A DNA stretch of 63,538 nucleotides, the filler included, from Conidiobolus incongruus B7586 (lineage: Eukaryota): NCBI GenBank assembly GCA_000697335.1. It is 7 parts of 7 records of this genome, joined end to end, with 100 filler letters (N's around TTAATTAATTAA, not from the genome) between each part and the next. Parts side by side here need not be neighbours in the genome. Positions count along the whole stretch, not along the records: positions 50,175 to 56,930 come from JNEM01006334.1; 6 more parts are not named here. One strand, written 5' to 3'. Below are positions 9,900-62,536 of this stretch, piece after piece (within the stretch, counting starts at the first letter, position 1; the number at the start of each line of letters is the position of its first letter). The position numbers and the translations under genes were made by a program. Below the pieces are notes generated by a model. That model did no database searches and was not told where the DNA came from. It saw nothing but the letters and a program-made list of their open reading frames with translations.

Positions 9900-9999
9900 N
9901 NNNNNNNNNNNNNNNNNNNNNNNNNNNNNNNNNNNNNNNNNNNTTAATTAATTAANNNNNNNNNNNNNNNNNNNNNNNNNNNNNNNNNNNNNNNNNNNN
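9900..9999. other. Assembly gap with artificial six-frame-stop linker (also at 17984-18083, 35488-35587, 50075-50174, 56931-57030, 62384-62483)
   Basis: An identical N-run/TTAATTAATTAA/N-run block of 100 nt occurs six times. Confidence 0.97.
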
Positions 10000-17983: not shown

Positions 17984-20900
17984 NNNNNNNNNNNNNNNNN
18001 NNNNNNNNNNNNNNNNNNNNNNNNNNNTTAATTAATTAANNNNNNNNNNNNNNNNNNNNNNNNNNNNNNNNNNNNNNNNNNNNTAATTAAACTTTGAATA
18101 TTAGATTATTTTAATAAAAATGTCTTTTTAATTCATTAAATATTATATTTTAATCTTAAATTTTATTTAATATTCTTTTTAAATAATTTCAAAATTTCAT
18201 AATAAGTATTATATTTAATGAAAAATATTTTATTAAATTTAATTATATAAAGATCTGAGATATTTTTCTTTTTAACTTAATACTACAAATAATAAAAAGT
18301 TTTTAATAAATTTATTTTAAACCAAAAGCAAATGCTATTTATTAATCATAATATATATATTAATAATATTTATATTATTAATAATAGATATGATCTATAT
18401 ATTTAGTATTTAGATATTTTATTATTTATTAATAATAATATCAAATTATATTTCAAAAACTAATTTTATTAAAATTTAAATTATTTTTAAAATAATTACA
18501 ATAGAATTAATATATAAAAATTTTATTGTTATTAATTGAATTGATTAATAATAAATAACAATTATATATGAATGTATAAACTTGTTCTTATTTTAATCAA
18601 GTTAAACCATCAGATTTTAGTTAGTATTTTTGATATTCAAAGGATGTAAATCAAGAATAATTAAGAGTAATATTAATAAAGAGATTAATATTTTATTAAA
18701 TAAAATTATTTTAATGAAAATATTAAAATTGATTAAAACTTTTTTAACACCTTATTAGAAATGGATACTGTGCTTCAATCGATATTATATTTTTTATATA
18801 TATTAGAGCTATATAGCACAATATTAACTCAACTTCTAATAAAAAAATCAATGATATTGATTTATTATTGCATTTAAATTCTAATTATAATCCATATACC
18901 ATTCAAAGCCATATGATTTTATGTTTTGTGTATATTGTATAGGTGTTGTGTTTTTTAATATGTTTTTTTTCAATAAAGACGGTTGTTAGAAAAGTACTAG
19001 TAATACGATTTAGTAAATTATTTATTAATCTTATTTTCTTAAATCTTACTTACTGGTGAGATGTCGTAGCATAATACCCAGAAAAATTAGAATCCCTTTC
19101 TATCCTTATCACTTCTGGCTTAAAATAATTTATTCAGTGAGTGATATATAATTTGGATAAATTCTAATAAAAGGAAGTATCGAACATCATTTGATTATGG
19201 ACTAAAAAATTCACTATAAATAGGAAGTAATATGGACTAAACTACCGAATCGAGACAGACAGGTGTTTTTGAAATATATCAATAGGGAAATATTGAATTG
19301 AAAAATATTTTTGCATAGTGATAATATTTTAAAATTGAATTGATTAACCAAAAAATATAATTCACTTTTAATACATAATCAATACAAGAGTTATATAGGA
19401 TTTACTCAAAAATATTAAACTTCATTGGGCAAAATCAGATATTTTTGAATAAAGTTAGAATAATTCACAAAGTCAAGTATATTCTGACATGTGTTTCATT
19501 TGTGCTTGCAGTTGATAAATCCCTCTCACTCCCTGATGTGTTCATGTCATTTTTTATATTCTTTGGATAGAGTACAATACTTTTAAAAAATATATACTCA
19601 AATTATATATATTTTGAAATAGTTATAAAAAATATGAAAATAATGACAATTGAGAGGCAGAATTCATATTAATATTGGTGAAATCAAAATTATATAAAAC
19701 AATTACAATTAAATTACTTGAAAATATTCAAAGCAAGAAAACTGTGTCAATTGTTTTGTAAAAAAGTACCAATTAAACTTTTTAATTTTAATCGAATTAT
19801 TGGTTTAAAGAATCAGTATCTCTGGATTTCATTACAACTGGATATTCTTCAAATTTGGTAAGTGTTTAGCGATAAAAAAACTCTACATTATCATTTTCAT
19901 TGTCTTATTGAGTTCAACTCTTCTTTCACATCAAAATTTCTATTATATAGTCACAAATTTAAATGAGTTTAAACCAAGGTATATTTTATTACAGCAATAA
20001 GATGGAATGATACTTTAATTATAAAAATTAAATCAATTTGAAGATACTATAAAAATAGTATTAATGGTCAATTATGTAATAAAAATGAATAATTTTCATT
20101 TTCAAATTACTTATAATTAATTAGAAAAAAATTAAAATTTTTTAATTATATATTTCATATTTATATTTAATTTTGGAATGATATATTAATTACAGTTGAT
20201 AAATTATTATAATTCTTAAAATAATATATAATTTATATGATCTAATCTGGATTATTCAATTTTTTCAATGAAATATTGATTAATAAATAAATTAGCTTCA
20301 ATTAAAACTCATTATTGAATAAAGTTATATACACAAAAGCATATTTTAATTATTGTACTATTATCAAAATTTAAATATTTTGAATTATCCTTATATTCAA
20401 GAATAAGATAGCATTAAATAAAGAAACATTTATGTATTGATAAGTCGATATTTGTTCTATATGATTTTTTAAAAATATATTAAATAATATATTACTTCAA
20501 GGGTTAATTCTAATTATTAATATCAAATTATTCCAAATTATACTCTATTTAATATAATTTCAAGTGCATTATTCTTACTTACCTAATTCAGATTAGCAAA
20601 TGAAATTATATGAATTTTAATATGAATGATCTGTTAAATATTTGAATATCAACTTACTCTTCTAAATATAAATCTAATTTTATCATTTGTTAGATGATGT
20701 TCAAAATCAATGATATTTTAAAATATTATATGAGTTCTAAAAAATAGACATTATCCCTTATTATATACTTTAATTGAAAATTTATAACTGTAATAATAAA
20801 TGTATTTTTGATAATGAATACATGATTAAACAACATACAAATAAAAATTAAATTCAAATTTATCAAACATTCAAAGTAATAAATAGATCAATTTATTCCT

Positions 20901-21370
20901 TATTGAATTTTTCCTATTCTTTAAGAATTTTATCTAATTTGGTAATATATTTTAAATAACATGATTGAAACATATAATCTTTATTAATGCGAAAATTTAA
21001 AAATGTTTCTGAATTAATCAAAAAAAATCTTAGATGATTGATCGATGCATGATGTACTATAAAATTAGTATAATTTTTCTTTATGATAATCGTGAATGCT
21101 AATCAAAATAAGAACATACTATGATTAGTAATGAATTTATTATTAACTATTATCTATTATCCCATAATTACAATTATTTTATATAAATACATTAATCTCA
21201 TGTTCATGATGGATTGGGGGAAGATTATAATTTTAGCCACCTTATTTAAATTTGAAATTGACTTAATTGGTCAAAAGCGGACAAATTATTTGAATTATAC
21301 TTTATCAAATGAAAAAAAACATTTAAATATAAAAAGGTTATTTAATCGTTTTAATCACCTTATTTTTGTA

Positions 21371-22822
21371 ATGTTTTCAATATTTCGAAAGGATCAGCCC
21401 AATAGGACACACAGTGCAATAGCTTGTAATAGATGTCGAGCTGATAAGAAGAAATGTGATAAAAAATTACCAGAATGTACTCGATGTTCAAATTATAATT
21501 ACAAATGCGAAAAGTATCAAAGAAAGTTTAAAAGTACTAAAAATTTAAAGCATATAATTAAAGATGATGATACATCCAGTAAGTCAAAGTGGTATATATA
21601 AATTATATTTATTTCAAATATTGAATTTATTATGTTAGTAAAAAATCAGTTATATCAGAAAAAATACAATTCTAGATCTCCTCTAATATATCCAAATGGA
21701 CGGTATCTTTCCCCCTACCCTCGACCGGGAAACCAACTACAATTCTCACAAATAATGTCATTATTCTCGCTTAGTGTGGATATGATAACTAAAAAACCAA
21801 ACAACCCAAACTCTAGTATATTTTCCGATTCAATTGATCATACTTTGAATTCAACATTCTGGTCCGATTTATTAAGAATATATTTTGAAGATTTTCATCC
21901 TGTTCACCCAATATTTAGTTTAAATAATTTTAATATTAACAAATGCTGGCTCCGAGCCAATTGTATTTTTTTGATGGCATATGAAACATATAACCATCGC
22001 ACATTGACAACCGATTGGAAAATGTCACAATTGGAGAATATTACTTCCAAATTCCTTCAAAAAGCAAGTCCAAAAATCAATGTTGTTCAATGCTATTTAA
22101 TCCTTTGTATTATGTATTTGCTTAGGGGAAATAATCGACTGAAAACTATATGTCTATATCGCGCAATTAGAATTTCTAATTTGATAGGACTAACTAAACG
22201 ATGTAATCAGCTCTCGGTTCGAGATCGTTATGAGAGATATTTGGCATTTACGCATATCATACTACTTCATTGGGCGGCCTTCGATTTCGCCAAAATGGAG
22301 GGAATTATTCATCAAGTAACACACTTTGTACCGAAATTCTCATGGCATTTTCAATTGATAAACCCTTCAAAATTTACCTATGGTGATTATATTATTGCTA
22401 ATAGTATCAATATCACAGCAAGTTATCTTTACTTGACTTATATAGAAGTAGCTCATCCATTTGCTGTCCAGGCTATTACGGATAAAATGGACGTTGATAA
22501 ATTGCTAGCATTTGAACGGAAATTGGATAATATTTATTTGTATCATATAGATCAATTGAAACCAAGTTATTTAAAATATTGTCAACAAGAAATAACTATC
22601 CATTACTATATAATTAAAAACCAACTGATCTCATTTATATTAAACCGATTAATGGACTCTCACAGCCAAAGCCGTTGGATTCAGTTGCATTTAGACATTC
22701 TACAATTTTGCAAACAATTAGATTATAAAAAAGAATGGATTAAATTATTTAAAGCGTTACTATGTTTAAACTCCTCATTAAAATTAAAATCAGAATCTAA
22801 TTCAGAAGAATTTCAAATTTAA
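21371..22822 (+). CDS. Zn(II)2Cys6 fungal transcription factor with middle homology region, 2 exons (intron ~21579-21638)
   Basis: ACNRCRADKKKCDKKLPECTRCSNYNYKC, followed by LLRIYFEDFHPVHPIF and AIRISNLIGL (Fungal_trans-like). Confidence 0.9.
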
Positions 22823-35099: not shown

Positions 35100-35487
35100 T
35101 TAGTGCAGAAATTAAGTAATGGCACAATTTTAAAATTAAAATTAAACAAATAAATTAATAAATAATATATAAAAATTAATGAATAATATAAAATTAATAG
35201 CCTCCTTTATTATTAATAACTCTTTTCTATACTTTTGGTAAGCTTCTAATACCTAAAAAACAGTTCTTTTTATTAAGGACTGAAATTTGATGTTTCACAA
35301 ACCAATTTAATTTGTTTGTAGGAATTTTTTTTCCTGCAAGCTGTTTTTTTAATTGTCTAAAACAATTATAATCATATAGATTATAATCAGGTGAATATAC
35401 TAGATGTGGTAACTCCCCCCAATTTTTTTTATATAAAAAATCTTTTACAGCTTTAGCTTTATGTATTTTGCAATTATCATGCAAAAT
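35100..35487 (-). mobile_element. Mariner (DD34D) transposase C-terminal fragment with right TIR, cut by a gap
   Basis: LHDNCKIHKAK...ELPHLVYSPDYNLYDYNCF has 34 residues between the second and third Asp. Terminus TA|TTAGTGCAGAAATTAAGTAATGGCACAATTTT. Confidence 0.88.
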
Positions 35488-38400
35488 NNNNNNNNNNNNN
35501 NNNNNNNNNNNNNNNNNNNNNNNNNNNNNNNTTAATTAATTAANNNNNNNNNNNNNNNNNNNNNNNNNNNNNNNNNNNNNNNNNNNNGTTATCATTATTT
35601 AATCTTCAAATTAAACTGAATTATTAATAAATTTTATAATATTTTTTTAAATATAAAATTCTTTTAATATAATTTATCAATAATTATTACTCTATCAGAT
35701 AAATATAAAATATATATAAAGTTATAACAAATTTTGGAATTTTAAATGATAAGATAAATTACCTGATTTAATATATTCAATAGATTATAGCATATAATTA
35801 TAATTACTTTAGGTAATTAAAAAAATCAATTTTTATGAAAGAAAATTTTCATAAACAAATTTAATTGGTTGATAAAATATTAAATTTCGATTTAAAGAAT
35901 TGTTGTTGATTGTTAAAGGTTTGCTAAAAATATAAGAAAGCGTGATTAATAATAAAAGAGAGAGTTGATTTTGTATTATAAATTTATTTTTCAACTTATA
36001 TATTAAAATCTCTTTTCTTTTCTAATCTTGAAAAATCCTTATTATTTAAAAAATTTAAGTAAAAATTGGGTTATTCAAAATATAGTTTGAAAGATTTTAT
36101 AGTTAATTTAAATAATATCATCAAAATTAAATGTAAATTAGGTGAAATAATTAGCGTTATCAAATAAAAATCAAATTTTTTCAAATTTGAAAATCTACTA
36201 TCATATTTCAAAAGTTATAAATTATATAAAATTAATTTAAATAGCTGTACCAATCATTGATTATTATAGACTATTTATTAAATATATAAAAATATATTTT
36301 CCCTAAATGTGGTAATATCCAATAATTTATCTTAATTGAACTTTATTGTATAACTTTTTTTCCCAATATTATTCGATAATATAAATTTTCTGATCTCATA
36401 TATATTGTATTTTTAAATTTACTCAACCTATTTAAATATAAAATCGATCAATGATGTGTTGAAAATTATATATTAAGTCTGAGATGCAATGCCTCATCCA
36501 ATAACATAAATATGCTCCTTTAGCAATTGAATTTCAAAGTATCTATGAATTAATATTCTTAAAATATATCTTAAATTTGATTGAATACAAATGATTTCAT
36601 AATTACAAAATTAAGTTGAACCTGATCTATTTGCAAAATATCGATCAGCTCAATGCAAAAAATTCGATTGAAATGGAAATCATTAATATCCCAAATGGGT
36701 TTTTAATTGAAATTAAATTAGGATTAATAAAAGTTGATTGGTCCCACACCAAAATTGACTTTACTTCTTTATATAGATTATCTATTTACTAAATTTGTAA
36801 ATATCAAATATATTTGAATTATACAGTGTTTAAATTAAAATTAAGGTAGTATAGCTGAATTTAATGATATATATATTTATTAAAGATATTATATAACATC
36901 TATAAATCGACTCTGGTATTTTCCTATATTCCTCTATATCTCAGATTTATTAATATCTCAAACTTAATAAAACATTAACAATTTAATATGTTTAAAATTA
37001 TTAGTTAAATTGTAATATTCACCTCATCAAATTTTTAATTAATAATTTTCGATCGTTACTAATTTTTAGGATCGCCCAAAATGAAAACCATTTATTAGGT
37101 TTAATCGTAATTAAAGAAGATTTAAATATGGAATTTATCCTCATTTATGCTTTGATTAGAAACTAATCTCAAAATTATAGAAATAATTAAATTACTCATT
37201 TACCTTTGTTAGAGAAAAGCCTCTTAACAGTTTGCTGAACCTAGTCAGAGTCATTACTTTTTAATCGAAATTATATTTATTTTAAGACTTTATATTATAT
37301 AGTATACCAAAATAGTTTTTTCATATTAAAATAATATTCTAATAATTGAAACAATTAATTTAAATTCATTTTATCATTCTTATGTCATTTATCTACTTTA
37401 TTTTAATCCTCAAAATAACTCTAATTCCTTGATAAATTTAATAATCCAATTAACCAACTGAATCAAAAATAACAAATATTTAAAATTAATTTAATATCAA
37501 CTTTACAGCAATAATGTTCAACATTCATTATTAATAGGAACTGTTTTGGATTACTTTAATTAGTACTTCAAATTAATCAAAATATATGAATGATTTTTAT
37601 AATCAACAGTTCTTTATTATAAGATATTTAGTTAAATAAAAATCATCATAATTTTGATATATTTCACAATATATCATGTTTGCTAAAAGCATTCGAGTAT
37701 ATCACAATATTATCATTGTTCATAAATATAATAATAAAATTGAATATGTAAAAATACTTAGTATACTAAAGATCATCCCAGATTTTCAATTTAACAACAA
37801 TAAAACAGTTTGGAATACTTGATTTTTTAAGCTTTCAAAGCCCCAAGAATAACTTTGGATAAAAAATCTAATGACGTAGTATCTGGAAAAATAATTAACA
37901 ATGAACTTGAAATATATTCTGCAATGAATAATTTTACTAATTTAATAACAAATGATAGCTAGAGTGATTTGAGTAAAGAGCTGAAAGCACCATATTCACA
38001 TCATATTATTACCAAATTGTAAAATTAAATACATTATCCTCAATCAATATAATATGGATAGATAGACTATCAAAAATAAAATATATTTGAAATTATTTCA
38101 AACTAAATATTTCTAATATGCAAGCATTAAATATTGTGATAAATATTAAATAAATAATAATAATATATAACCGCAAAATATTTTGAGATATATCGGTTAT
38201 CAATATTATATTCTAATAACATATCAAAGCAACGTATAAACATAAATCAATATTAGTTTGATAAGTTACAATTTCAAATTATCAAATTTGAATCAAGAGA
38301 TCAATATAATCAATTTAGATCGAAAACAAATATAAAATATTTAAATATATGAAATATTTCTACATTTTAATACCCGATACAACGGTTGGAGCCCTAAAAG

Positions 38401-50074: not shown

Positions 50075-50973
50075 NNNNNNNNNNNNNNNNNNNNNNNNNN
50101 NNNNNNNNNNNNNNNNNNTTAATTAATTAANNNNNNNNNNNNNNNNNNNNNNNNNNNNNNNNNNNNNNNNNNNNTTATATTATAGAGTTAATTAATATAT
50201 AAATAAATTTTTTCAAAAAGGGATTTGAGTATTTTAATATTATTATTATTTAAAATGATAATTTAAAATAAAAATATTAGTATATATATAATTTAGTAAA
50301 AAAAAATTTAAATAATTATTGTTTTATATACCTTTTTAACTTATAAGCCTATAAATTTATAATTCATCTTATTTAAAATTTAAGATTTAATATATTAAAT
50401 ATAATTAAATAATATGTATTATAATCAAATATTATATTTTAATTTAAATAAATTTAGTTAAGAATTTTTTAAATTATTAGTAAATATATAAGGGACTTTA
50501 ATTTTATTACTTATTTTTGCAAGTTAGTATATATATATATATATATTTGGTAAATTATATATTATTTTTGATTTGAGGATAAATTAATAATAATAATTAT
50601 TTTAATAAATTTTTATATTTGATTAAGTATTTTATTTAAGATAAATATGACTTCAAAATACAATACATGAAAAAATTATTCTATTGCAATAATTTAAGCT
50701 ATTATATACAAAATGTAAAAGTATCATTGTATTGATTCAAAAATCTGAAGCCAATTATTTCTAATTTGTCCATTTTATAAGAAATATATCAATAACCTCA
50801 ATATATCAGTCATCATTTTCTCAAGTGAAATTATTTTGTTAATAAAATATAGATTATTATTAAATATTTTATTAATGTAATCAATAATCAAATACTGCAA
50901 AATATATATACTAAGTGATAATACAAATTATTAATAGTATCATCAATTCATTTATTATCACAAATAATATATT

Positions 50974-51117
50974 ATCAAATCCATATTTGTAAAAATTTTC
51001 ACCTTAGTTGCTTCTTTATTCCGCATGGCTATGGCAGTAACCGTGGTTGTGGCACCTACTCTCTTTGATACTAATTAAGCAGTTGGAAGTATTGGTTCTT
51101 CTAGAAATATTGTATAA
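50974..51117 (+). pseudogene. Pseudogene of the small secreted peptide family (paralog of 52034 and 54521)
   Basis: Reads (I)KSIFVKIFTLVASLFRMAMAVTVVVAPTLFDTN*AVGSIGSSRNIV*. ATC stands at the expected ATG and TAA at the conserved Gln. Confidence 0.65.
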
Positions 51118-52033
51118 ATCTAATTATAATCATTATATAGCAATCACTTTTCAACCTCATCCTTGCAAAATTCTGAAAATTAAATAAATTAAAATATAGA
51201 TTATCATATTACTTTCTTTGGTAAATTTAGAAATGCGGCTCTATAATAACATTCAATAGTTATGAATTTAAATATATTAAATTGATATATTATAAAGATA
51301 ATATAATCACAAATTTAATGGTATCTGATAAAAGTGTCCAATCACCTCATTTTGGTCATTGATTTATAGCGTTGAATACATCTTTGAAATTGCTTGGTAA
51401 TAATAGTGATTAGTAATAAAATGCATATATAAATTATATACTCACTATATTGATTATATATAAATTCATTAAGCTTTCATTTTAAACTACTCAGGTTAAG
51501 CGACAATTATTATATTATTAATTATAAATTTTGAAAGTGAAAATTGATATAAAAGTATAAATAAAAATTTTAGACATTTAATATCTTTCAATTTAATAAT
51601 ATTATTTTTTAATATTGCTATCAATATTTTTTTTATTTATAAAAGATTTTATGAAAAATTATCCATCAAGAATTTGTTATTTATTGTCCAGTAATTATTA
51701 CAGAATATCACAACTCAAATTATTATACCCTCATTTAATGAACTCATTAACTGCTAAGAATATAATGATAAATTAAATTATATATTGATTTAGGAAAATT
51801 CTAATAATTTGAATATAAAGTATATGATATGAAAGTTATATTACCGAATATTATCAATTCTAAGGAAATTTTATTTATAAAAACCGTTAAAATTTTTTTA
51901 ATAAAATAATAAAAATCTCCTTAAGATTTTTGTAGATGTGACAATTAGATTAAATTCAAATTGAAATATAAATGATTAAGTAATAAGAAAAGTTGTGATA
52001 ATTTTGAATTATTTAATTATTTAACCACTTATT

Positions 52034-52195
52034 ATGAATTTTGTAATTACTCAGATTTTTGTGTTTTTGCTATCGGCTTCAATTTGGTCATTGCCTACTG
52101 GTGATAGTTTAACTCCAACACTCTTCGAAGCTAAACAAGCTATTGGAAATGTATCAAGTTCTACAAATATTGTTGATAATTCTGGCGATTTTTAA
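52034..52195 (+). CDS. Small secreted peptide precursor, 53 aa (below the ORF-track cutoff)
   Basis: MNFVITQIFVFLLSASIWS-LPTGDSLTPTLFEAKQAIGNVSSSTNIVDNSGDF*: a signal-peptide-like N-terminus plus a core shared with 54521-54853. Confidence 0.75.
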   Translation: MNFVITQIFVFLLSASIWSLPTGDSLTPTLFEAKQAIGNVSSSTNIVDNSGDF

Positions 52196-52965
52196 AGTTG
52201 GATATTAAAATCAATTATTTCTTATTAACTATGATTTTTTACATCGGTATCATAATATTTCAACAATCCTTTATTGAGTAATAAAATAATAGGAAAGTAT
52301 TAATAACATATTTGCGTTATATTAATTTTCTTATTAATATGGCTGATCAAAATTTTGATATTGAAATGATACAGTTGATATTATTCAACTTGGTCTATTA
52401 TATTTTTGTTGATACTTTTTTAATAATGAGATTTTACAATATTTTATTATTCTTTCAAACTTGAATATTGATAATTCACTTAATTTTTTGGACCAAATAC
52501 TAATAAAAATTTAATATATTTGAAAAAGCTATGATTGTATATTTAAGTATTTTTTATTTCTAATCTTTAGTGCATCATATAAGGATTCAATTAGTTTGCT
52601 AAATTCTATTAAATTTTAATTCTCCAAATTTCATAACTTGGAAATTTGATAAAATTATCTAAATTATTTTTCAAGTATAGTTGATATATACCATACATTA
52701 AATATAAAAGAATTATATGTAATATATTACTTATTGATTATTGGAAAAAATTAAGTTGTTCAAATTTTGAAATTATTGAAGTTTTTATGGTATTGAGAAC
52801 TCTAGGATTGTAAAATAACATGATTTTTATAATATATTAAGTGTTATATAATAAGAATAAAATAAGATAAGATAAAGAAACAGAGGTACATTTGAACCTA
52901 AAAAAGTTGTTGTTAAAAAAGGTAGTAAAAAATTAATAATGAAACAATTATTTAAGTATCAAAAA

Positions 52966-53039
52966 TGCTCCCAACAGGGATCAAACCTGTGACCTTGGCG
53001 TTATTAGCACCACGCTCTAACCAACTGAGCTATGGGAGC
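52966..53039 (-). tRNA. tRNA-Ile (anticodon AAT), with a T-loop C56T variant
   Basis: GCTCCCA/TGGGAGC acceptor stem, TAGCTCAGTTGGTTAGAGC D arm, TGGTG-CTAATAA-CGCCA anticodon arm, T loop TTTGATC and an immediately following T5 terminator. Confidence 0.92.
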
Positions 53040-53049
53040 CTATTTGAAT

Positions 53050-53607
53050 TGTCACGACTATTAGCTCTTGCAGCGTCATCTAGGACACTGACACAGCCAT
53101 TCTGTAGGCCAGATTGTGAAACATGACACCTACCAGCTGGGGAAAACAACCGATGATCAGGTCTCTGGCTATTTGGCCTTGATCACTTGTAAATAGGGCT
53201 TTGTAAAGAGTGACTAGACCAGCAGCAACAGTGGTGGCGTTGGGATCCGACATGCTAATAAGATGGAATTGAGGAATATTAATAGGAATGAACTTAGAAA
53301 GAATAGTGTAAAATGACTCAAGTGGGACTATAGGCAGTTACTTGAGTATACCAAAAGGGCTGGTTTTGGAAGTAGGCAAAAGTTTTATTTGTGTAAAAAA
53401 GTAATGTAAGAGAGTGAGATCAAGAGGAGGAGACAAATCCTTCTTATAACTAAGTGAAATATATAGGCATAAGTATGCAATAGCTGAGTAACAGTGAGGT
53501 CACTCTGATATAGACTGGTAAAAGTTGATGAGGCTTAGTTTGGTTAATCAGGTACTTAGTAGTGAATTGGAGTGAGGAAAGGCATCAATTAGGTAGTAAT
53601 TGCCATG
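53050..53607 (-). mobile_element. Solo LTR (family T), 10 bp upstream of tRNA-Ile
   Basis: Homologous to 24272-24803 in the opposite orientation, with TGTCAC at 53050 and a perfect flanking TGAAT duplication at 53045-53049 and 53608-53612. Confidence 0.82.
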
Positions 53608-54520
53608 TGAATAATTTAATAAAACAAGAATACTTATAGATTTTAAGATAATTTATTACAAACAATAATATTTCTCATCATAATCTACTTTATTTTAATA
53701 CCAATTTGTTTCATTTCCATTTTATATTACATTCATAATATTTTAAAAATTTTAATTTTTTTTCAATTCTATTAATCTAACTTATTAATTTTATACATGA
53801 AAAATTTTAAATTATATTTATATAATATTAAATTTCTGGTTAATCTATTTATTCACAAATTTTTGAAATCTATAAAATCAAATATTTCAAAATTTAAACT
53901 CATAAAAATTCTGATTTTGCATAATACTATATATTATGTAAAAGTAATTATTTTATTCATAGATTTTTATATTATAGCTTGAAAAACAACATGCTAAGTA
54001 TTAAATCTAAAAAAAAATGACAAAAATCAAACATACATTATAATTTAGTTAGAAAAGATAATTCCTTATTTAAAATGGCTCGTATGCTGCTCAAATATAT
54101 ACTGAACAAAATTATTATAATTGAATATATTATCAACTGACGAAAATCTTAAAAAATAATTTGAAAAATATTCTTATTTAGTATAATGTTATTGATTTTC
54201 TCAATTTCTAGAATTATATCAACAATCCACAATTTTAATGTACAAGAGAACGAAGTAATATAAAGAATATAAGTTTATGGAAAATTTCATTCTAGTTATT
54301 ATTAAACAATAGTACTGTTAGATATATCATAATAATTCTCATAAACTGTCCATTATAAACGAATTGATTTTATATGATTATATTCATTGATTACGACTTC
54401 ATATTCAAACTGTCAGTTTGTTGACGAGTTAGATAATCTGCAAATTGATAGTCATTTCACAATAATATAAAAGAATTGGTTAAAAGCTTTAAATCACTTA
54501 TTTTGAATCTAAATCTGGCC

Positions 54521-54853
54521 ATGGTTTATATTTGGATAACTATCCATTTAATTTCGAGTATTTTGAGTGCGCCTATGCCGAATCCTGGCGGCATAATTCC
54601 TGAACTGTTTGGTGCGAAGCAGGCGACGGGTAATATTGGTGGCGCTACCAATATTGTTAACAATTCGGGACCTACCTCTCCTAGTGGGGCTCAATTCCTC
54701 CCACCGCCCCCTATGATGTTCATGCCTCAGCAGCAGCCTACTTTCTTTATTCATGATGCTAGCACTGTGCAGCCTCACGGTCCTCTCACTGGATTGAATT
54801 CTGCTTCTTTGAATGATCCTTTGCCCAATCCTGCCCCGCCGATGTTCTTTTAA
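54521..54853 (+). CDS. Small secreted protein with the conserved AKQA core and a Pro-rich tail (110 aa)
   Basis: MVYIWITIHLISSILS-APMPNPGGIIPELFGAKQATGNIGGATNIVNNSG...PPPPMMFMPQQQP..., a GC-rich coding island in AT-rich DNA. Confidence 0.8.
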   Translation: MVYIWITIHLISSILSAPMPNPGGIIPELFGAKQATGNIGGATNIVNNSGPTSPSGAQFLPPPPMMFMPQQQPTFFIHDASTVQPHGPLTGLNSASLNDPLPNPAPPMFF

Positions 54854-55511
54854 ATAGATTATCATATTGCATTTTCTAAGTTCATAATTTTTTGCGTTAG
54901 TTTCTTTGAAATAAAAACCATCATATTCATATCATTCAAACTATTTTTAAATATAATAACCAATTGTTATCTAATAAAATATCAAGTAGTGATATTAAAA
55001 TTGATTATATTACTATCAATGCAATATTAGTGCACTCTTTCTTTCAAATAATCAGAATAAAATTAAACCCATAGATGATTATAAACACTAATAAACAAAA
55101 AATTAGAAAATAGTCAATACAAGTCAACAAAGATATCAATATAATTCAATATCCAAGGTTATTTTAAATATTATATAAATTAACTTAATCATATATTATT
55201 TTAAAAGATATTTAATATTATTTAAAATCGAAATGATTTATTATAAAAAAACTATTCAAAATTAAATAATTATAGAAACTATATAATATTAATATAATAA
55301 TTCAAGTTAATGAAATTTTAACCATTTTATTAAGGTTCAAATTTTTAATATTATATTAATTGATTGGTAATTCATTAATAATTTTTTCGATTTTAGATTG
55401 AATATATAGGATATTTGAATTAAATAGTATAATTATAAAAAATAGATTTGATAATAATAAATAATCATTTAATGCAAACTATAATATATAAATTGCTTAA
55501 CAGTAGGTGGG

Positions 55512-55994
55512 TTACATGCCATTCATAATTTCCGAAGTTAATTCATCGGCATCATTGGGTCCAATTTGTTGTTTAGCAGTCGCAACTGAAGAGAGCAATC
55601 TTCGGACGAGAGTGTCGTGGGGACCTTCGTGACGTCGGTTTAATTGAGAAGCTCTTCTGCGGTGTCGTGCGTGGCTATTGTGACCTCCATTATGGCCGTC
55701 GTGACGATCTTCCTGTCGACGTTCCAAGGAAATGGATCTTTTGGCTTTTGCAGTGTCGTGGGGACCATCGTGACGTCTACTCAATTTCTTGGCTTTGCTG
55801 TTGTGGTGATGGTGGTGATGGTGATGGTGGTCGTGCTGTCTGCGCTCAAGGTTTACAGATCTCCTGGCAATATTAGTATCGTGAGGGCCGTCATGACGTC
55901 TGACCAATTCAGCGTCTAGCTTATATGGTAGTGAGTGAGCTTCAGTAAAGATCAAATTAAAAATCAAACTCAACAAAATAGTTTTAAATTGCAT
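55512..55994 (-). CDS. Secreted His-rich Kex2-processed repeat protein (KEP-like peptide precursor)
   Basis: Signal peptide, multiple RR/KR sites, three H[DE]GPHDT units, two S(V/I)xLERR spacers and a His9 tract. Confidence 0.85.
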   Translation of the reverse strand: MQFKTILLSLIFNLIFTEAHSLPYKLDAELVRRHDGPHDTNIARRSVNLERRQHDHHHHHHHHHNSKAKKLSRRHDGPHDTAKAKRSISLERRQEDRHDGHNGGHNSHARHRRRASQLNRRHEGPHDTLVRRLLSSVATAKQQIGPNDADELTSEIMNGM

Positions 55995-56402
55995 CCTGAT
56001 ATTAATAATAAATATATTATAATTTTCTAGTCTACATATTCATTGTAATATATATAATGATGTTGAGACAATTGAAATAAACTAATAGTTGAAAAAAGTG
56101 TGGGGTGAATTTAAGATAATCCAATTATTTTAAACATTGAACTTGTGCAATCAATAGATTGTCAATAGTGGTCAACACAATTGATCAATTCTACGTATCT
56201 GGCGCATACCCATATTTCAATCAAGCTATAAATCTTAATATAACAAATTAAGAATTAATCTAATTATATTTAAATATTGAATCACCAAAACACTTTTAAA
56301 TCCAATACAATATCCCATAATAATAAAAAAATCATTAATTGAAAATATATAAATCCTCAATTTAAAATCAAATCAATTTAAAAAAAAGGCTTTTTTCTTA
56401 CT

Positions 56403-56930
56403 CAAGAAGCGGAAACCACACCTAATCTTGAGCTCATTCCTTCAAAGAGCGTGAAACCACTTTGAAAAAAAAAAGAAGAGAGAAGCAAAACACATCCAAC
56501 TATACAAACGATGCCCTCTATCAACGAGGACCCGGCTAGGAAGATAGCCCCCCCGACACCCCCGGATCCGAATATCCAGAAACAACCCAATCAAGCAATG
56601 ATGTCGTACGCAAAAATTCTTGCAGCAGCAAACGGTAAGTTACCCTTCTCTACTACCGCATACTCCCTTGTTTTTGACGTCTCTAAATTTTCGTTCTCAG
56701 ATATTAAATCGGAACAAACCGATGCTATCCCTTTAGATGTACCTTTCAACAGTTTGAGAAACGCCATCATTCGCTCATACATTCCCTTAGGGGCCTCTTC
56801 AGGCCAATCTAGAATGGCAAGCAGATTAATTGAAGTGGGATTCAAAAGTCTTGAACACAGAAATAATGCCATGCACCAAACCTACAAAGTTGAAGGCATC
56901 GAGATAATCCCCAAAATCACACAAGATCCA
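56403..56930 (+). mobile_element. Probable non-LTR retrotransposon (L1/Tx1-like) ORF1 5' portion, cut by a gap
   Basis: An abrupt rise in GC content. The open ORF has PPTPPDP, SYAKILAAA and RLIEVGFKSLEHRNNAM..YKVEGIEIIP, resembling the RRM-like region of LINE ORF1 proteins. No RT is visible. Confidence 0.55.
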
Positions 56931-57030
56931 NNNNNNNNNNNNNNNNNNNNNNNNNNNNNNNNNNNNNNNNNNNNTTAATTAATTAANNNNNNNNNNNNNN
57001 NNNNNNNNNNNNNNNNNNNNNNNNNNNNNN

Positions 57031-58833: not shown

Positions 58834-61443
58834 ATGTCATCTTTAGATCCTATAGAATTATTACAATGGAGTTTTATAACTCAACAAAATATGCCAGTAC
58901 TAGATTCTGATATATCGAAATACGAACTAGTTAACGAATTGAGTTCTTTGTTAAAAGATGGCAAATTTTTTGAAATTATTTCTAATCCTGTATTTAACTT
59001 TGTATACTCTCAAATCCCTGCCGATGAGAGTATTAAGCAAATTGCTGATAGTGTGAATAAGGAAGATGCTACCATTACCGAGACTTACATCCAGTTGAAG
59101 GCTTACCAGCTCCACATCAGCGGAGCCATTAAGACCTGGGTCAATGAAGATAATATCCATCACATTTTGATGTTGATTTTGGGTATTGCTCTACTAAATT
59201 TTTTCGTTCAAGTTGGTTGGACAGGTCCCGAAATGAGTAAGGAGCAAGCTGGAGAACTTTCACAACTTTTCAAAGTGATTTACCCTAATCCAGAAGATTT
59301 TTCTGCTAAGAGATCCAATACAACTGATGCTATCCTTAGAGATTTTTCTGTAGAGGGTGAAGATGCTTACCATTTGACTTTATATCCTGCTATGTTGTGG
59401 TATTCTGAAACTATTTTGAGTGTCCTGGCCCCCCTTGGATTGGCCAAGAGCTCTAACTGGTGGTTAAGCCGTGCTTTATTTTTCAAGCAACGTTTATTAG
59501 ATAACCCTACCGAAACTTTGAAAAATACTATATATAACCTTTTGAAACCTTTTATTGATTCTTTACCCACTTTGGAGCCCACTCATCCAGATTTTGAATT
59601 ATTTTCCGATTTGGGATCTCGTCTCTGGATTGAATTGGGTCTTCACAACCATTTATTTTACCAAGATCAACAAGCTGTTGAATGCTACGATCGCTCTAAA
59701 GATTGGAGTGGTCTCGAATACCAGATTACTGGTGCCCTGGGTAAGCGAACCAAATACCAGCAAAGAGATATCAGTCAGCTCGTTTTGTGGGCTAAAAGTA
59801 GAAAAGCTGGCGAACAAACTGAAAAACCCAAGCTTCCAGAGACTCTCCCATTGAATGATGATACCCTTATGGAAAATATTAAATTTGCTGAAAATCAAGA
59901 AGATGAAGAATTCCAAAAGGAAATTTCTAATCCTTCCTCTTTGGCCAAGATTGATCAATGTATCTTGTTGGCTTACTGTCTCAATATTAAGAATACTAAC
60001 CCTGATCACGGTATTACCAACGAACAGATGTTCCCATATGTCACTAGAGTTTTAGCTCATCCCAACAACTGGATGATTCATACCATGGGTTTAGTTTTGA
60101 GATCTCGTTTGGAAAGCACCAAATCCAGAACTGTCGAAAGATCAGTATTCCAATTACAAGCTTTAGTTGATCAATGGAATGTTACTGACTCTCAAGTCAC
60201 TGAAAGATTGGAGCATATCCATTCCCTCTTACTCCCATCTAAATGGGAAATGGAAAAGGAACTCGCTGAAAGATTCATGTCTCTTGGTATCATCAGATCA
60301 GCTCTTGAAATTTACCAAAAGTTAGAATTATGGGAACAAGTTATTAACTGTCACTTGATGCTTGAAAAAGAAGATCACGCCATGGCTGTGATTGAAGAGC
60401 AACTTGCTATCAATCCCAACTCTCCCAAATTACTCTGTCTCAAGGGTGATGCTACCGAAGATCCTACATGGTACCACCGCGCTTGGGATATTTCTGGTCA
60501 GAGATACTCTCGTGCTATGAGATCTCTTGGTAGCTACTACTTCAAGAAGGGTGAATACAACTCGTCCGTTGGTTGCTTCATGAAGGCTTTGACTATCAAT
60601 CCTCTCTTCGAACACTCCTGGTACCTTTGTGGATGTGCTGCCATGCAATGTGAAAACTATGAAATTGCCGCTCAAGCTTTCCGTCAAGTCATTTCCATCG
60701 ATGACGAAAATGCTGAAGCTTGGAACAACTTAGCTTCCATTTACCTCAAGATTAATCAGAAGAAGGAAGCCTTCCTCGCCTTCAAGCAAGCTTTAAAGCG
60801 CAAATACGAAAACTGGAAGATCTGGACCAATTACATGTATACCAGTTTGGATATGGGGTATATTGGCGAAGCCATCCGCGCCTTTGAAAAAATCGTCGAT
60901 CTCAGATGGAAAGACGCCAAGGAAGCTTGTGTTGACCAGGAAATTTTAGGTATTTTCATTAATGCTGTCCTCAACGACACTCCCGACGCCAAAGGTCAAG
61001 GATCTGCTAGATATGCTGCTCAGCTGGAGAGTTTGATCAAGAACACGATTTTGACGAGAATTGTCGCAGATGCTGGCATTTGGAAGCTGTATGCCAAATT
61101 GTTGCTCAGTAACAAGCGTTATGCCGAAGCTTTGGACTGTCAGGTTAAAGCTTACAGAACCATCTCCCATAAAGCTGACTTATTGACCAACCCTGTATCC
61201 TTCCAAATCGTCAGTGAAAGTTTAATCGAATTGGTCGATAGTTACCAGAGCTTGGGATCTCAGCCCAACCCCACACCAGAGAACCCTGACGCTGTAGTAT
61301 GCCCCGACTGGAACTATCAATCCCGCATGCTACTACGAAACTTGATTGCCAAGACTAAGAACACCTACGAAGGGGAACATCACCACAATTTGTTGGTCAA
61401 TGCTTTAGAAGAGTTGCCTCCCGCCAACAAAATTCAAAAATAA
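58834..61443 (+). CDS. EMW1: TPR-repeat protein, TTC27/Emw1 family
   Basis: ITGALGKRTKYQQ..ISQLVL, LNDDTL, NWMIHTMGLVLRSRLES..SRTVERS..QLQALVDQ and TPR repeats (AEAWNNLAS, ENWKIWTNY). Confidence 0.92.
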   Translation: MSSLDPIELLQWSFITQQNMPVLDSDISKYELVNELSSLLKDGKFFEIISNPVFNFVYSQIPADESIKQIADSVNKEDATITETYIQLKAYQLHISGAIKTWVNEDNIHHILMLILGIALLNFFVQVGWTGPEMSKEQAGELSQLFKVIYPNPEDFSAKRSNTTDAILRDFSVEGEDAYHLTLYPAMLWYSETILSVLAPLGLAKSSNWWLSRALFFKQRLLDNPTETLKNTIYNLLKPFIDSLPTLEPTHPDFELFSDLGSRLWIELGLHNHLFYQDQQAVECYDRSKDWSGLEYQITGALGKRTKYQQRDISQLVLWAKSRKAGEQTEKPKLPETLPLNDDTLMENIKFAENQEDEEFQKEISNPSSLAKIDQCILLAYCLNIKNTNPDHGITNEQMFPYVTRVLAHPNNWMIHTMGLVLRSRLESTKSRTVERSVFQLQALVDQWNVTDSQVTERLEHIHSLLLPSKWEMEKELAERFMSLGIIRSALEIYQKLELWEQVINCHLMLEKEDHAMAVIEEQLAINPNSPKLLCLKGDATEDPTWYHRAWDISGQRYSRAMRSLGSYYFKKGEYNSSVGCFMKALTINPLFEHSWYLCGCAAMQCENYEIAAQAFRQVISIDDENAEAWNNLASIYLKINQKKEAFLAFKQALKRKYENWKIWTNYMYTSLDMGYIGEAIRAFEKIVDLRWKDAKEACVDQEILGIFINAVLNDTPDAKGQGSARYAAQLESLIKNTILTRIVADAGIWKLYAKLLLSNKRYAEALDCQVKAYRTISHKADLLTNPVSFQIVSESLIELVDSYQSLGSQPNPTPENPDAVVCPDWNYQSRMLLRNLIAKTKNTYEGEHHHNLLVNALEELPPANKIQK

Positions 61444-62323: not shown

Positions 62324-62536
62324 ATATATATATATATTAATTTTTAAAAAAAATAGTTAATTGATAAAATAAATATTTTATATNNNNNNNNNNNNNNNNN
62401 NNNNNNNNNNNNNNNNNNNNNNNNNNNTTAATTAATTAANNNNNNNNNNNNNNNNNNNNNNNNNNNNNNNNNNNNNNNNNNNNTTAATAATTATTTATTT
62501 TTAATTTAAATCAAATTATATTAAACTATATAAATA

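What the first reader, a model, noticed from the sequence alone, without database searches (positions are those of the whole stretch)
55512..55994. His-rich Kex2-processed repeat precursor predicted to release metal-binding peptides
Seen: after the signal peptide, RR/KR sites delimit HDGPHDTNIA, SVNLE, QHDHHHHHHHHHNSKAKKLS, HDGPHDTAKA, SISLE, QEDRHDGHNGGHNSHARH, ASQLN and HEGPHDTLV. Established: fungal KEX2-processed repeat proteins (alpha-factor, Ece1 and UstA-type precursors) release multiple peptides, N-terminal Gln can cyclise to pyroglutamate, and His/Asp clusters or a free N-terminal His bind Zn/Cu/Ni. No DUF3328/UstYa-type tailoring gene is seen in the window. Inference: linear secreted metallophore-like or histatin-like antimicrobial peptides.
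Basis: partly seen in the sequence, partly recalled or inferred. Interest (0 to 1): 0.7.

Follow-up and report, generated by a model that had tools for sequence, protein, structure and literature searches.

The report
Fungal precursor of conserved HEGPHD peptides
A Conidiobolus-like fungus carries an intact gene for a small, likely secreted protein whose repeated six-residue histidine/acid motif is kept in one distant relative; it is predicted to be cut into short peptides that would bind zinc or copper outside the cell, a new example of a known precursor class with an untested function.

Summary
55512-55994 (-) is an intact 160-codon frame with a signal-peptide-like start and nine dibasic sites, six with Leu at P4. 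All eight named fragments are there. A 41-residue unit is duplicated, and 15 of its 26 conserved residues use different codons, so the protein is under selection. One relative was found among 1.84 billion representatives (P0122, E 1e-16). It shows what is conserved: H[ED]GPHD in 8 of 8 copies, Leu-x-Arg-Arg sites, and one Gln-initiated His-rich peptide whose composition is kept but not its sequence. The nine-His run is not conserved, and a free N-terminal His is present in only 1 of the relative's 5 copies. The core peptides are acidic and lack ATCUN, so 'histatin-like' fits poorly. The genome is Conidiobolus-like, a lineage already known to be rich in such precursors and without DUF3328 genes, so their absence here is expected. 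Best reading: a new two-member family of Kex2-processed repeat proteins releasing linear Zn/Cu chelators (0.45); main rival a signalling peptide (0.25). Expression, secretion, cleavage and metal binding are all untested.

The parts
55512..55994 (-). Single-exon coding frame, 160 aa precursor (P0001)
   Evidence: relative P0122 with the same start
55932..55994 (-). Predicted signal peptide, residues 1-21 (cut after 19 or 21)
   Evidence: hydropathy; (-3,-1) candidates; start conserved with P0122, 0 of 5,000 shuffles reach the score; SignalP not run
55902..55931 (-). Pro-piece before the first Leu-Val-Arg-Arg site (residues 22-31)
55866..55895 (-). Core peptide copy 1, HDGPHDTNIA (residues 34-43)
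55845..55859 (-). Spacer SVNLE, supplies Leu at P4 for the next site
55779..55838 (-). Gln-initiated His-rich peptide 1 (residues 53-72; 10 His, run of 9; ends KKLS like the relative's KKKLA)
55743..55772 (-). Core peptide copy 2, HDGPHDTAKA (residues 75-84)
55722..55736 (-). Spacer SISLE
55662..55715 (-). Gln-initiated His-rich peptide 2 (residues 94-111; 5 His), in gap-free register with peptide 1 at offset 41
55638..55652 (-). Spacer ASQLN
55605..55631 (-). Core peptide copy 3, HEGPHDTLV (residues 122-130)
55515..55598 (-). 28-aa acidic C-terminal tail without His, weakly similar to the relative's tail
   Evidence: 15 of 5,000 shuffles reach the local score

Best explanation
The gene encodes a repeat precursor that is likely secreted and predicted to be cut by Kex2 (then trimmed by Kex1) into linear peptides, three H[DE]GPHD cores and two Gln-initiated His-rich peptides, which would chelate zinc or copper outside the hypha. 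Shown: intact frame under selection, dibasic sites with Leu at P4, hexapeptide conserved in a relative. Inferred from the known pathway: entry into the ER, Kex2/Kex1 processing, pyroglutamate formation, no cyclisation. Inferred and untested: His1, acid2, His5 and Asp6 fold around the Gly-Pro turn into one low-capacity metal site, while the His-rich peptide is a high-capacity chelator; together they would buffer or withhold Zn/Cu at the fungal surface. Whether the metal is then taken up is not addressed by any evidence here.
For: H[ED]GPHD in 8 of 8 copies of two proteins that are 43% identical over the aligned part; the only change is Glu/Asp, which keeps a carboxylate, while flanking positions vary. 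Four of six core residues are metal-ligand types; 6 of 8 copies read HExxH, the zinc motif named for histatin 5 (PMC7559477, passages). The second peptide type keeps His richness (10 of 20, 5 of 18, 9 of 25) and a Gln start but not its sequence, which suits a chemical role better than a receptor ligand. A natural peptide with nine His, EDDH(9)GVG(10), binds zinc and inhibits a metalloproteinase (PMC12108757, passages). Leu at P4: 6 of 9 and 12 of 14 sites, the Kex2 preference (PMC8528282, passages). C. coronatus is not among the 15 species listed as lacking KEX1, KEX2 or STE13 (PMC6339444 Table S1b). 15 of 26 conserved residues of the duplicated unit use different codons.
Against: No measurement of expression, secretion, cleavage or binding. 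Only two sequences. Strict conservation of a hexapeptide also fits a receptor ligand. Almost any His-rich peptide binds metal in vitro, so binding alone would not prove a role. Gly-Pro breaks the helix on which HExxH binds zinc in enzymes (own knowledge), and 2 of the window's 3 copies read HDxxH. No ATCUN start. Free His1 in 1 of 5 copies of the relative; its first copy has no dibasic site before it and three carry 3-residue extensions. No metal transporter family among 120 frames scanned and none of the recalled zinc/copper promoter motifs in 506 upstream bases (motifs from Dikarya, weak test). Knockouts of six other such precursors gave no phenotype in culture (PMC9769878 discussion).
Confidence: 0.45

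Rival explanations
1. The H[ED]GPHD core is a signalling peptide (pheromone-like or quorum-like ligand of a fungal receptor), multiplied in the precursor to raise the dose, and the His-rich piece is accessory.
For: Multi-copy invariant core with variable flanks is the alpha-factor pattern; the relative's extensions SSP, SPP, AST look like trimmed N-terminal leaders; pheromones of most early-diverging fungi are chemically unknown (PMC6339444, passage); an MF_alpha cluster is third in the Atlas list for P0122, score 0.77, below the level that counts.
Against: No aromatic or Cys residue in the window's mature part, unlike known alpha-type pheromones (own knowledge); no X-Ala/X-Pro dipeptide after any of the window's nine sites; no Pfam MF_alpha match; does not explain the conserved His-rich partner.
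Confidence: 0.25
2. The peptides (or the partly cut precursor) form a metal-cross-linked surface coat or adhesive on spores or hyphae, as Rep1 repellents form a coat in Ustilago.
For: Many His sites per chain could cross-link through metal; Rep1 is a Kex2-processed repeat protein with a structural role (PMC7329392 passage; PMC3133707 abstract start); the His-free C-terminal tail is weakly conserved and amphipathic.
Against: The released pieces are short and very hydrophilic (GRAVY -0.9 to -2.8), unlike amphipathic repellents; dense well-formed cut sites argue for full processing.
Confidence: 0.12
3. The peptides are histatin-like antimicrobials that enter or permeabilise competing microbes, helped by metal.
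For: His-rich; HExxH in 6 of 8 cores; peptide 53-72 would be cationic (+1.9 at pH 7.4, +11 at pH 5) if its Lys tail stays.
Against: Cores are acidic; without the Lys tail the His-rich peptides are neutral or acidic (-0.1, -2.3, -3.1); no ATCUN; no aromatic residues.
Confidence: 0.08
4. The frame is a drifting low-complexity sequence whose His run arose by codon slippage and whose products have no role.
For: Only one relative found in three large searches; CAC/CAT run.
Against: Synonymous changes at conserved residues, mixed His codons and no length change between the two His-rich copies; conserved signal region, core and tail in a diverged relative; coding-like GC3 in AT-rich DNA.
Confidence: 0.04

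Closest known systems
KEX2-processed repeat proteins (KEPs), Le Marquer 2019 (PMC6339444), Umemura 2020 (PMC7329392), Vogt 2022 (PMC9769878)
   Same: Signal-like start, three or more similar fragments between dibasic sites, no DUF3328 gene, Gln-initiated pieces able to form pyroglutamate; Zoopagomycota have the most KEPs per strain (11.56; 185 in all, none with DUF3328); 19 and 11 are listed for C. coronatus.
   Different: Two peptide types in one precursor (77 of 1193 KEPs have two); His/acid core not met in the searches run; di-His occurs in only 3.9% of KEPs without DUF3328. The C. coronatus KEP sequences could not be seen, so a distant tie to one of them is open.
Viper pHpG peptides, EDDH(9)GVG(10) (PMC12108757)
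   Same: Small peptide cut from a secreted precursor, acid residue(s) then nine His; shown there to bind zinc and inhibit a metalloproteinase.
   Different: No poly-Gly tail, no homology, and here the His run is not conserved; analogy only.
Histatin 5 (PMC7559477)
   Same: Short linear His-rich secreted peptide; HExxH in 6 of 8 cores.
   Different: Histatin 5 is cationic, aromatic and starts with ATCUN; the cores here are acidic with none of these.
Pra1/AspF2 zincophore (PMC12663325)
   Same: Secreted fungal protein using His-x-x-x-His spacing for zinc.
   Different: Pra1 is a folded hexamer with an HRXXH+H triad and a linked Zrt101 receptor gene in Dikarya; this protein has no Pfam match, no confident fold and no transporter neighbour.
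Dikaritin RiPP precursors (UstA type)
   Same: Signal peptide plus Kex2-separated repeats.
   Different: No Tyr in the cores, no DUF3328 gene; cyclisation not expected.

Membership tests
KEP (Le Marquer 2019 / Umemura 2020) | ER signal peptide, no membrane anchor | tested here: inconclusive
   Basic n-region, hydropathy peak 2.5, candidate cut sites, start conserved in P0122; SignalP and TMHMM not available
KEP (Le Marquer 2019 / Umemura 2020) | At least four fragments after cutting at KR/RR | tested here: met
   10 fragments; rule
KEP (Le Marquer 2019 / Umemura 2020) | At least three similar fragments (8 aa or more in Umemura) between Kex2 sites | tested here: met
   10, 10 and 9 aa copies; 0 of 100,000 shuffles; rules; the authors' own pipelines were not run
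KEP (Le Marquer 2019 / Umemura 2020) | Repeats cover at least 15% of the protein | tested here: met
   9 x 3 / 160 = 16.9%; borderline, 13.1% if only the 7-aa core is counted
KEP (Le Marquer 2019 / Umemura 2020) | Actual cleavage by Kex2 in vivo | not testable with these tools
   Indirect only: Leu at P4; C. coronatus not listed as lacking the proteases
Dikaritin RiPP | DUF3328 gene nearby | tested here: not met
   No match (120 of 183 candidate frames; short exons can be missed); none in Zoopagomycota
Dikaritin RiPP | Tyr in the core for ether cross-linking | tested here: not met
   No Tyr after residue 30 in either protein
Alpha-type pheromone precursor | STE13 X-Ala/X-Pro dipeptides after the sites; MF_alpha family match | tested here: not met
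   0 of 9 sites in the window's protein; one SP start in the relative; no Pfam match
Histatin-like antimicrobial peptide | Net cationic charge and N-terminal ATCUN | tested here: not met
   histatin features
Histatin-like antimicrobial peptide | HExxH zinc motif | tested here: inconclusive
   1 of 3 copies in the window, 5 of 5 in the relative
Pra1-type zincophore | Folded domain with HRXXH+H triad; linked zinc transporter gene | tested here: not met
   No Pfam match, model pLDDT 51, pTM 0.13, no transporter match; features
Metallophore (functional class) | Induced by metal limitation, binds metal, delivers it to an uptake system | not testable with these tools
   No expression data or binding assay available

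The most novel reading that the evidence does not exclude
A ribosomally made, two-component peptide metallophore of entomophthoralean fungi: one precursor releases a defined H[ED]GPHD zinc/copper-binding turn and a pyroglutamate-capped His-rich chelator that together win or withhold metal in an insect or vertebrate host. In the searches run here no such role is described for a KEP.
Probability: 0.17. Interest if true: 0.72.

Novelty: new member of a known kind. Interest (0 to 1): 0.38.

Why it matters
Thousands of fungal Kex2-processed repeat proteins are catalogued and nearly all lack a function. This one gives a sharp, cheap test: a six-residue motif kept in 8 of 8 copies across two diverged proteins, made mostly of metal-ligand residues, from a genus that infects insects and sometimes mammals (own knowledge; listed as an animal pathogen). 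If it proves to be a regulated metal chelator it would add a metal-handling role to the class; if it is a signal it would be a first peptide signal for this lineage. As it stands it is one more uncharacterised member of a common class.

Tried and rejected
No whole genome is held, so paralogues and kex2/kex1/glutaminyl cyclase genes could not be searched. RNA runs: none was listed; this says nothing on expression. Word-index search with the single protein: 0 of 69 candidates; it missed P0122, so its blank is weak. Profile search of the two proteins: only P0122 among 7,994 candidates scored. Pfam: no family for either protein. PDB sequences: best E 0.02, matches over the His-rich stretch, read as His tags. 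ESM Atlas: best 0.79 and 0.80, leads only. AlphaFold2 of P0122 with a two-row alignment: pLDDT 51, pTM 0.13, so no fold search was run. Literature search for the motif: 5 papers; one checked (an Argonaute sequence), four judged unrelated by title. KEP supplements hold no such motif, but the tables give accessions, not sequences; Le Marquer's sequence table is on an outside website and was not seen. Earlier findings by sequence or place: none. Complex prediction was not run: a metal cannot be the scored partner. Rejected: poly-His as the conserved unit; free His1 as required; histatin-like charge; meaning in the missing DUF3328.

Full report
Observation. The frame at 55512-55994 on the minus strand reads 160 codons without a stop, while the other five frames hold 6 to 14 stops. 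It is a GC island (0.46) in flanks of 0.16-0.22, with GC3 0.41 and a codon-bias score inside the range of four other genes of the window. The repeat is far beyond chance: 0 of 100,000 shuffles gave two near-identical 7-mers after dibasic sites, against three here.

Anatomy. Self-comparison peaks at offset 41 (30 identities of 119; next best 18): the unit Leu-x-RR / core / RR / five-residue spacer / RR / Gln-initiated His-rich peptide is present twice and followed by a third core. Over 45 aligned residues 26 are identical and 15 of these use different codons, the mark of selection on the protein. The two His-rich peptides align without a gap, so the nine-His run differs from its sister by substitution, not by length; its codons are mixed CAC/CAT. 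18 of 20 Arg sit in dibasic sites and 6 of 9 sites have Leu at P4, which is the Kex2 preference (PMC8528282, passages seen). The start looks like a signal peptide by hand criteria; no predictor was available.

Organism and neighbourhood. The TPR gene at 58834-61443 is 85% identical to its Conidiobolus coronatus counterpart and 52% or less to all 119 other listed hits, so the genome is Conidiobolus-like but not identical to that record. The window is broken by six 100-base spacers, and this gene lies across one of them; only 50175-56930 is surely contiguous with the finding. That segment holds a tRNA-Ile gene, two related small secreted-looking genes and no frame with a Pfam match. Across the window, 120 of 183 candidate frames (45 aa or more, GC 0.24 or more; I left out 63: frames overlapping three long genes and the finding itself, and a few beside the zinc-finger gene) plus the long frames were scanned, with housekeeping matches only and no DUF3328 or metal transporter. 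Short exons may have been missed.

Relatives. The word-index search found nothing. HMMER over 1.84 billion representatives found one protein at E 0.001 or better: P0122, 240 aa, E 1e-16, a singleton 'hypothetical protein' without an organism name. A profile of the pair found only P0122 again, two metagenome scans gave no relative, and no annotated C. coronatus protein surfaced although that proteome is in the collection. Homology goes beyond the repeat: the first 33 residues score above all 5,000 shuffles and the tails above all but 15. P0122 has five HEGPHD copies, one His-rich peptide starting Gln-Glu-Asp and ending in a Lys run, and Leu at P4 in 12 of 14 sites. Across both proteins positions 1, 3, 4, 5 and 6 of the core are invariant in 8 of 8 copies and position 2 is Glu (6) or Asp (2); flanks vary. 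The conserved unit is the hexapeptide. The His-rich peptide keeps composition (10 of 20, 5 of 18, 9 of 25 His), not sequence; its longest His run is 4 in the relative. A free N-terminal His follows a dibasic site in all three window copies but in only 1 of 5 of the relative's, where three copies carry three extra residues and one has no dibasic site before it.

Mechanism. Shown: an intact, selected gene with a conserved processing grammar and core. Inferred from the established pathway (PMC9769878, passages and discussion seen): signal removal, Kex2 cuts, Kex1 trimming, and pyroglutamate at N-terminal Gln, which that paper detected on other KEP peptides. C. coronatus is not among the 15 species lacking KEX1, KEX2 or STE13 (PMC6339444 Table S1b). 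Cyclisation is not expected: no Tyr, Trp, Phe or Cys after residue 30, and no DUF3328 protein was found outside Dikarya (PMC7329392, passages). For function I commit to extracellular Zn/Cu chelation (0.45): two His and two acids around a Gly-Pro turn, a Glu/Asp exchange as the only change, HExxH in 6 of 8 copies (histatin motif, PMC7559477 passages), a co-released partner conserved for His content, and a natural nine-His peptide shown to bind zinc and inhibit a metalloproteinase (PMC12108757 passages). Against it: nothing is measured, n is two, and an invariant multi-copy core also fits a receptor ligand (0.25). A surface-coat role (0.12), a histatin-like antimicrobial (0.08; cores are acidic, no ATCUN) and a functionless frame (0.04) are less likely. 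True metallophore action needs re-uptake, for which there is no evidence; Pra1 membership fails on fold, triad and linked transporter (PMC12663325 passages).

Comparison and novelty. The protein meets the sequence rules for KEPs (PMC6339444 methods read; PMC7329392 methods passage), with the 15% coverage rule met narrowly (16.9%). Zoopagomycota are the phylum richest in KEPs and C. coronatus has 19 and 11 in the two surveys, so finding one is ordinary. Their sequences were not visible: Umemura's table gives accessions (15 of 19 rows seen) and Le Marquer's is on an outside site; these could bear on whether the family is already catalogued. A full-text search for the motif gave 5 papers, none about it as far as checked, and searches for His-rich fungal Kex2 peptides or Conidiobolus peptides listed no study of such a precursor (listings only). 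Earlier notes of this scan describe several unrelated His-rich KEPs in other fungi, one in a Basidiobolus-like genome; I did not test them, and they lower the surprise rather than support the metal reading. Other papers: PMC5293756 passages seen, not relevant beyond the class; listings only.

Verdict. Real feature, new member of a known kind, with a defined conserved motif that makes the metal hypothesis cheap to test. Interest 0.38. The boldest reading not excluded, a two-component ribosomal peptide metallophore, has probability about 0.17 and would deserve about 0.72.

Noticed in passing
window 52034-52195 (+) and 54521-54853 (+): Two small frames (53 and 110 aa) with signal-peptide-like starts share a 33-residue stretch at 52% identity (E 9e-11); no Pfam match. 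A tandem pair of unknown small secreted proteins right beside the precursor gene, the second convergent with it.
   Followed up: partly
window 52966-53039 (-) and about 53040-53600: tRNA-Ile(AAT) gene abutted by about 550 bases that look richer in G+C than the surrounding DNA with no Pfam match; possibly a remnant of a tRNA-targeted mobile element (guess).
   Followed up: partly
window 56511-56930 (+): Open frame running into the spacer, divergent from the precursor gene, no Pfam match; could be the first frame of a retroelement (guess).
   Followed up: partly
window 9900-9999, 17984-18083, 35488-35587, 50075-50174, 56931-57030, 62384-62483: Six identical 100-base spacers (44 N, a 12-base six-frame stop word, 44 N): gene order across them may not be real adjacency.
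   Followed up: partly
window 35230-35487 (-): Fragment with a weak DDE_3 transposase match next to a spacer (E 1e-4).
   Followed up: no
window 21131-22822 (+): Zn(2)-Cys(6) transcription factor in two frames (Zn_clus E 3e-9; Fungal_trans E 1e-3), probably joined by an intron.
   Followed up: no
P0122 residues 102-113 and 116-179: The relative has an extra Gln-initiated hydrophobic/acidic piece and three cores with exactly three extra N-terminal residues; a tripeptidyl aminopeptidase would expose His1 in all three (speculation).
   Followed up: no
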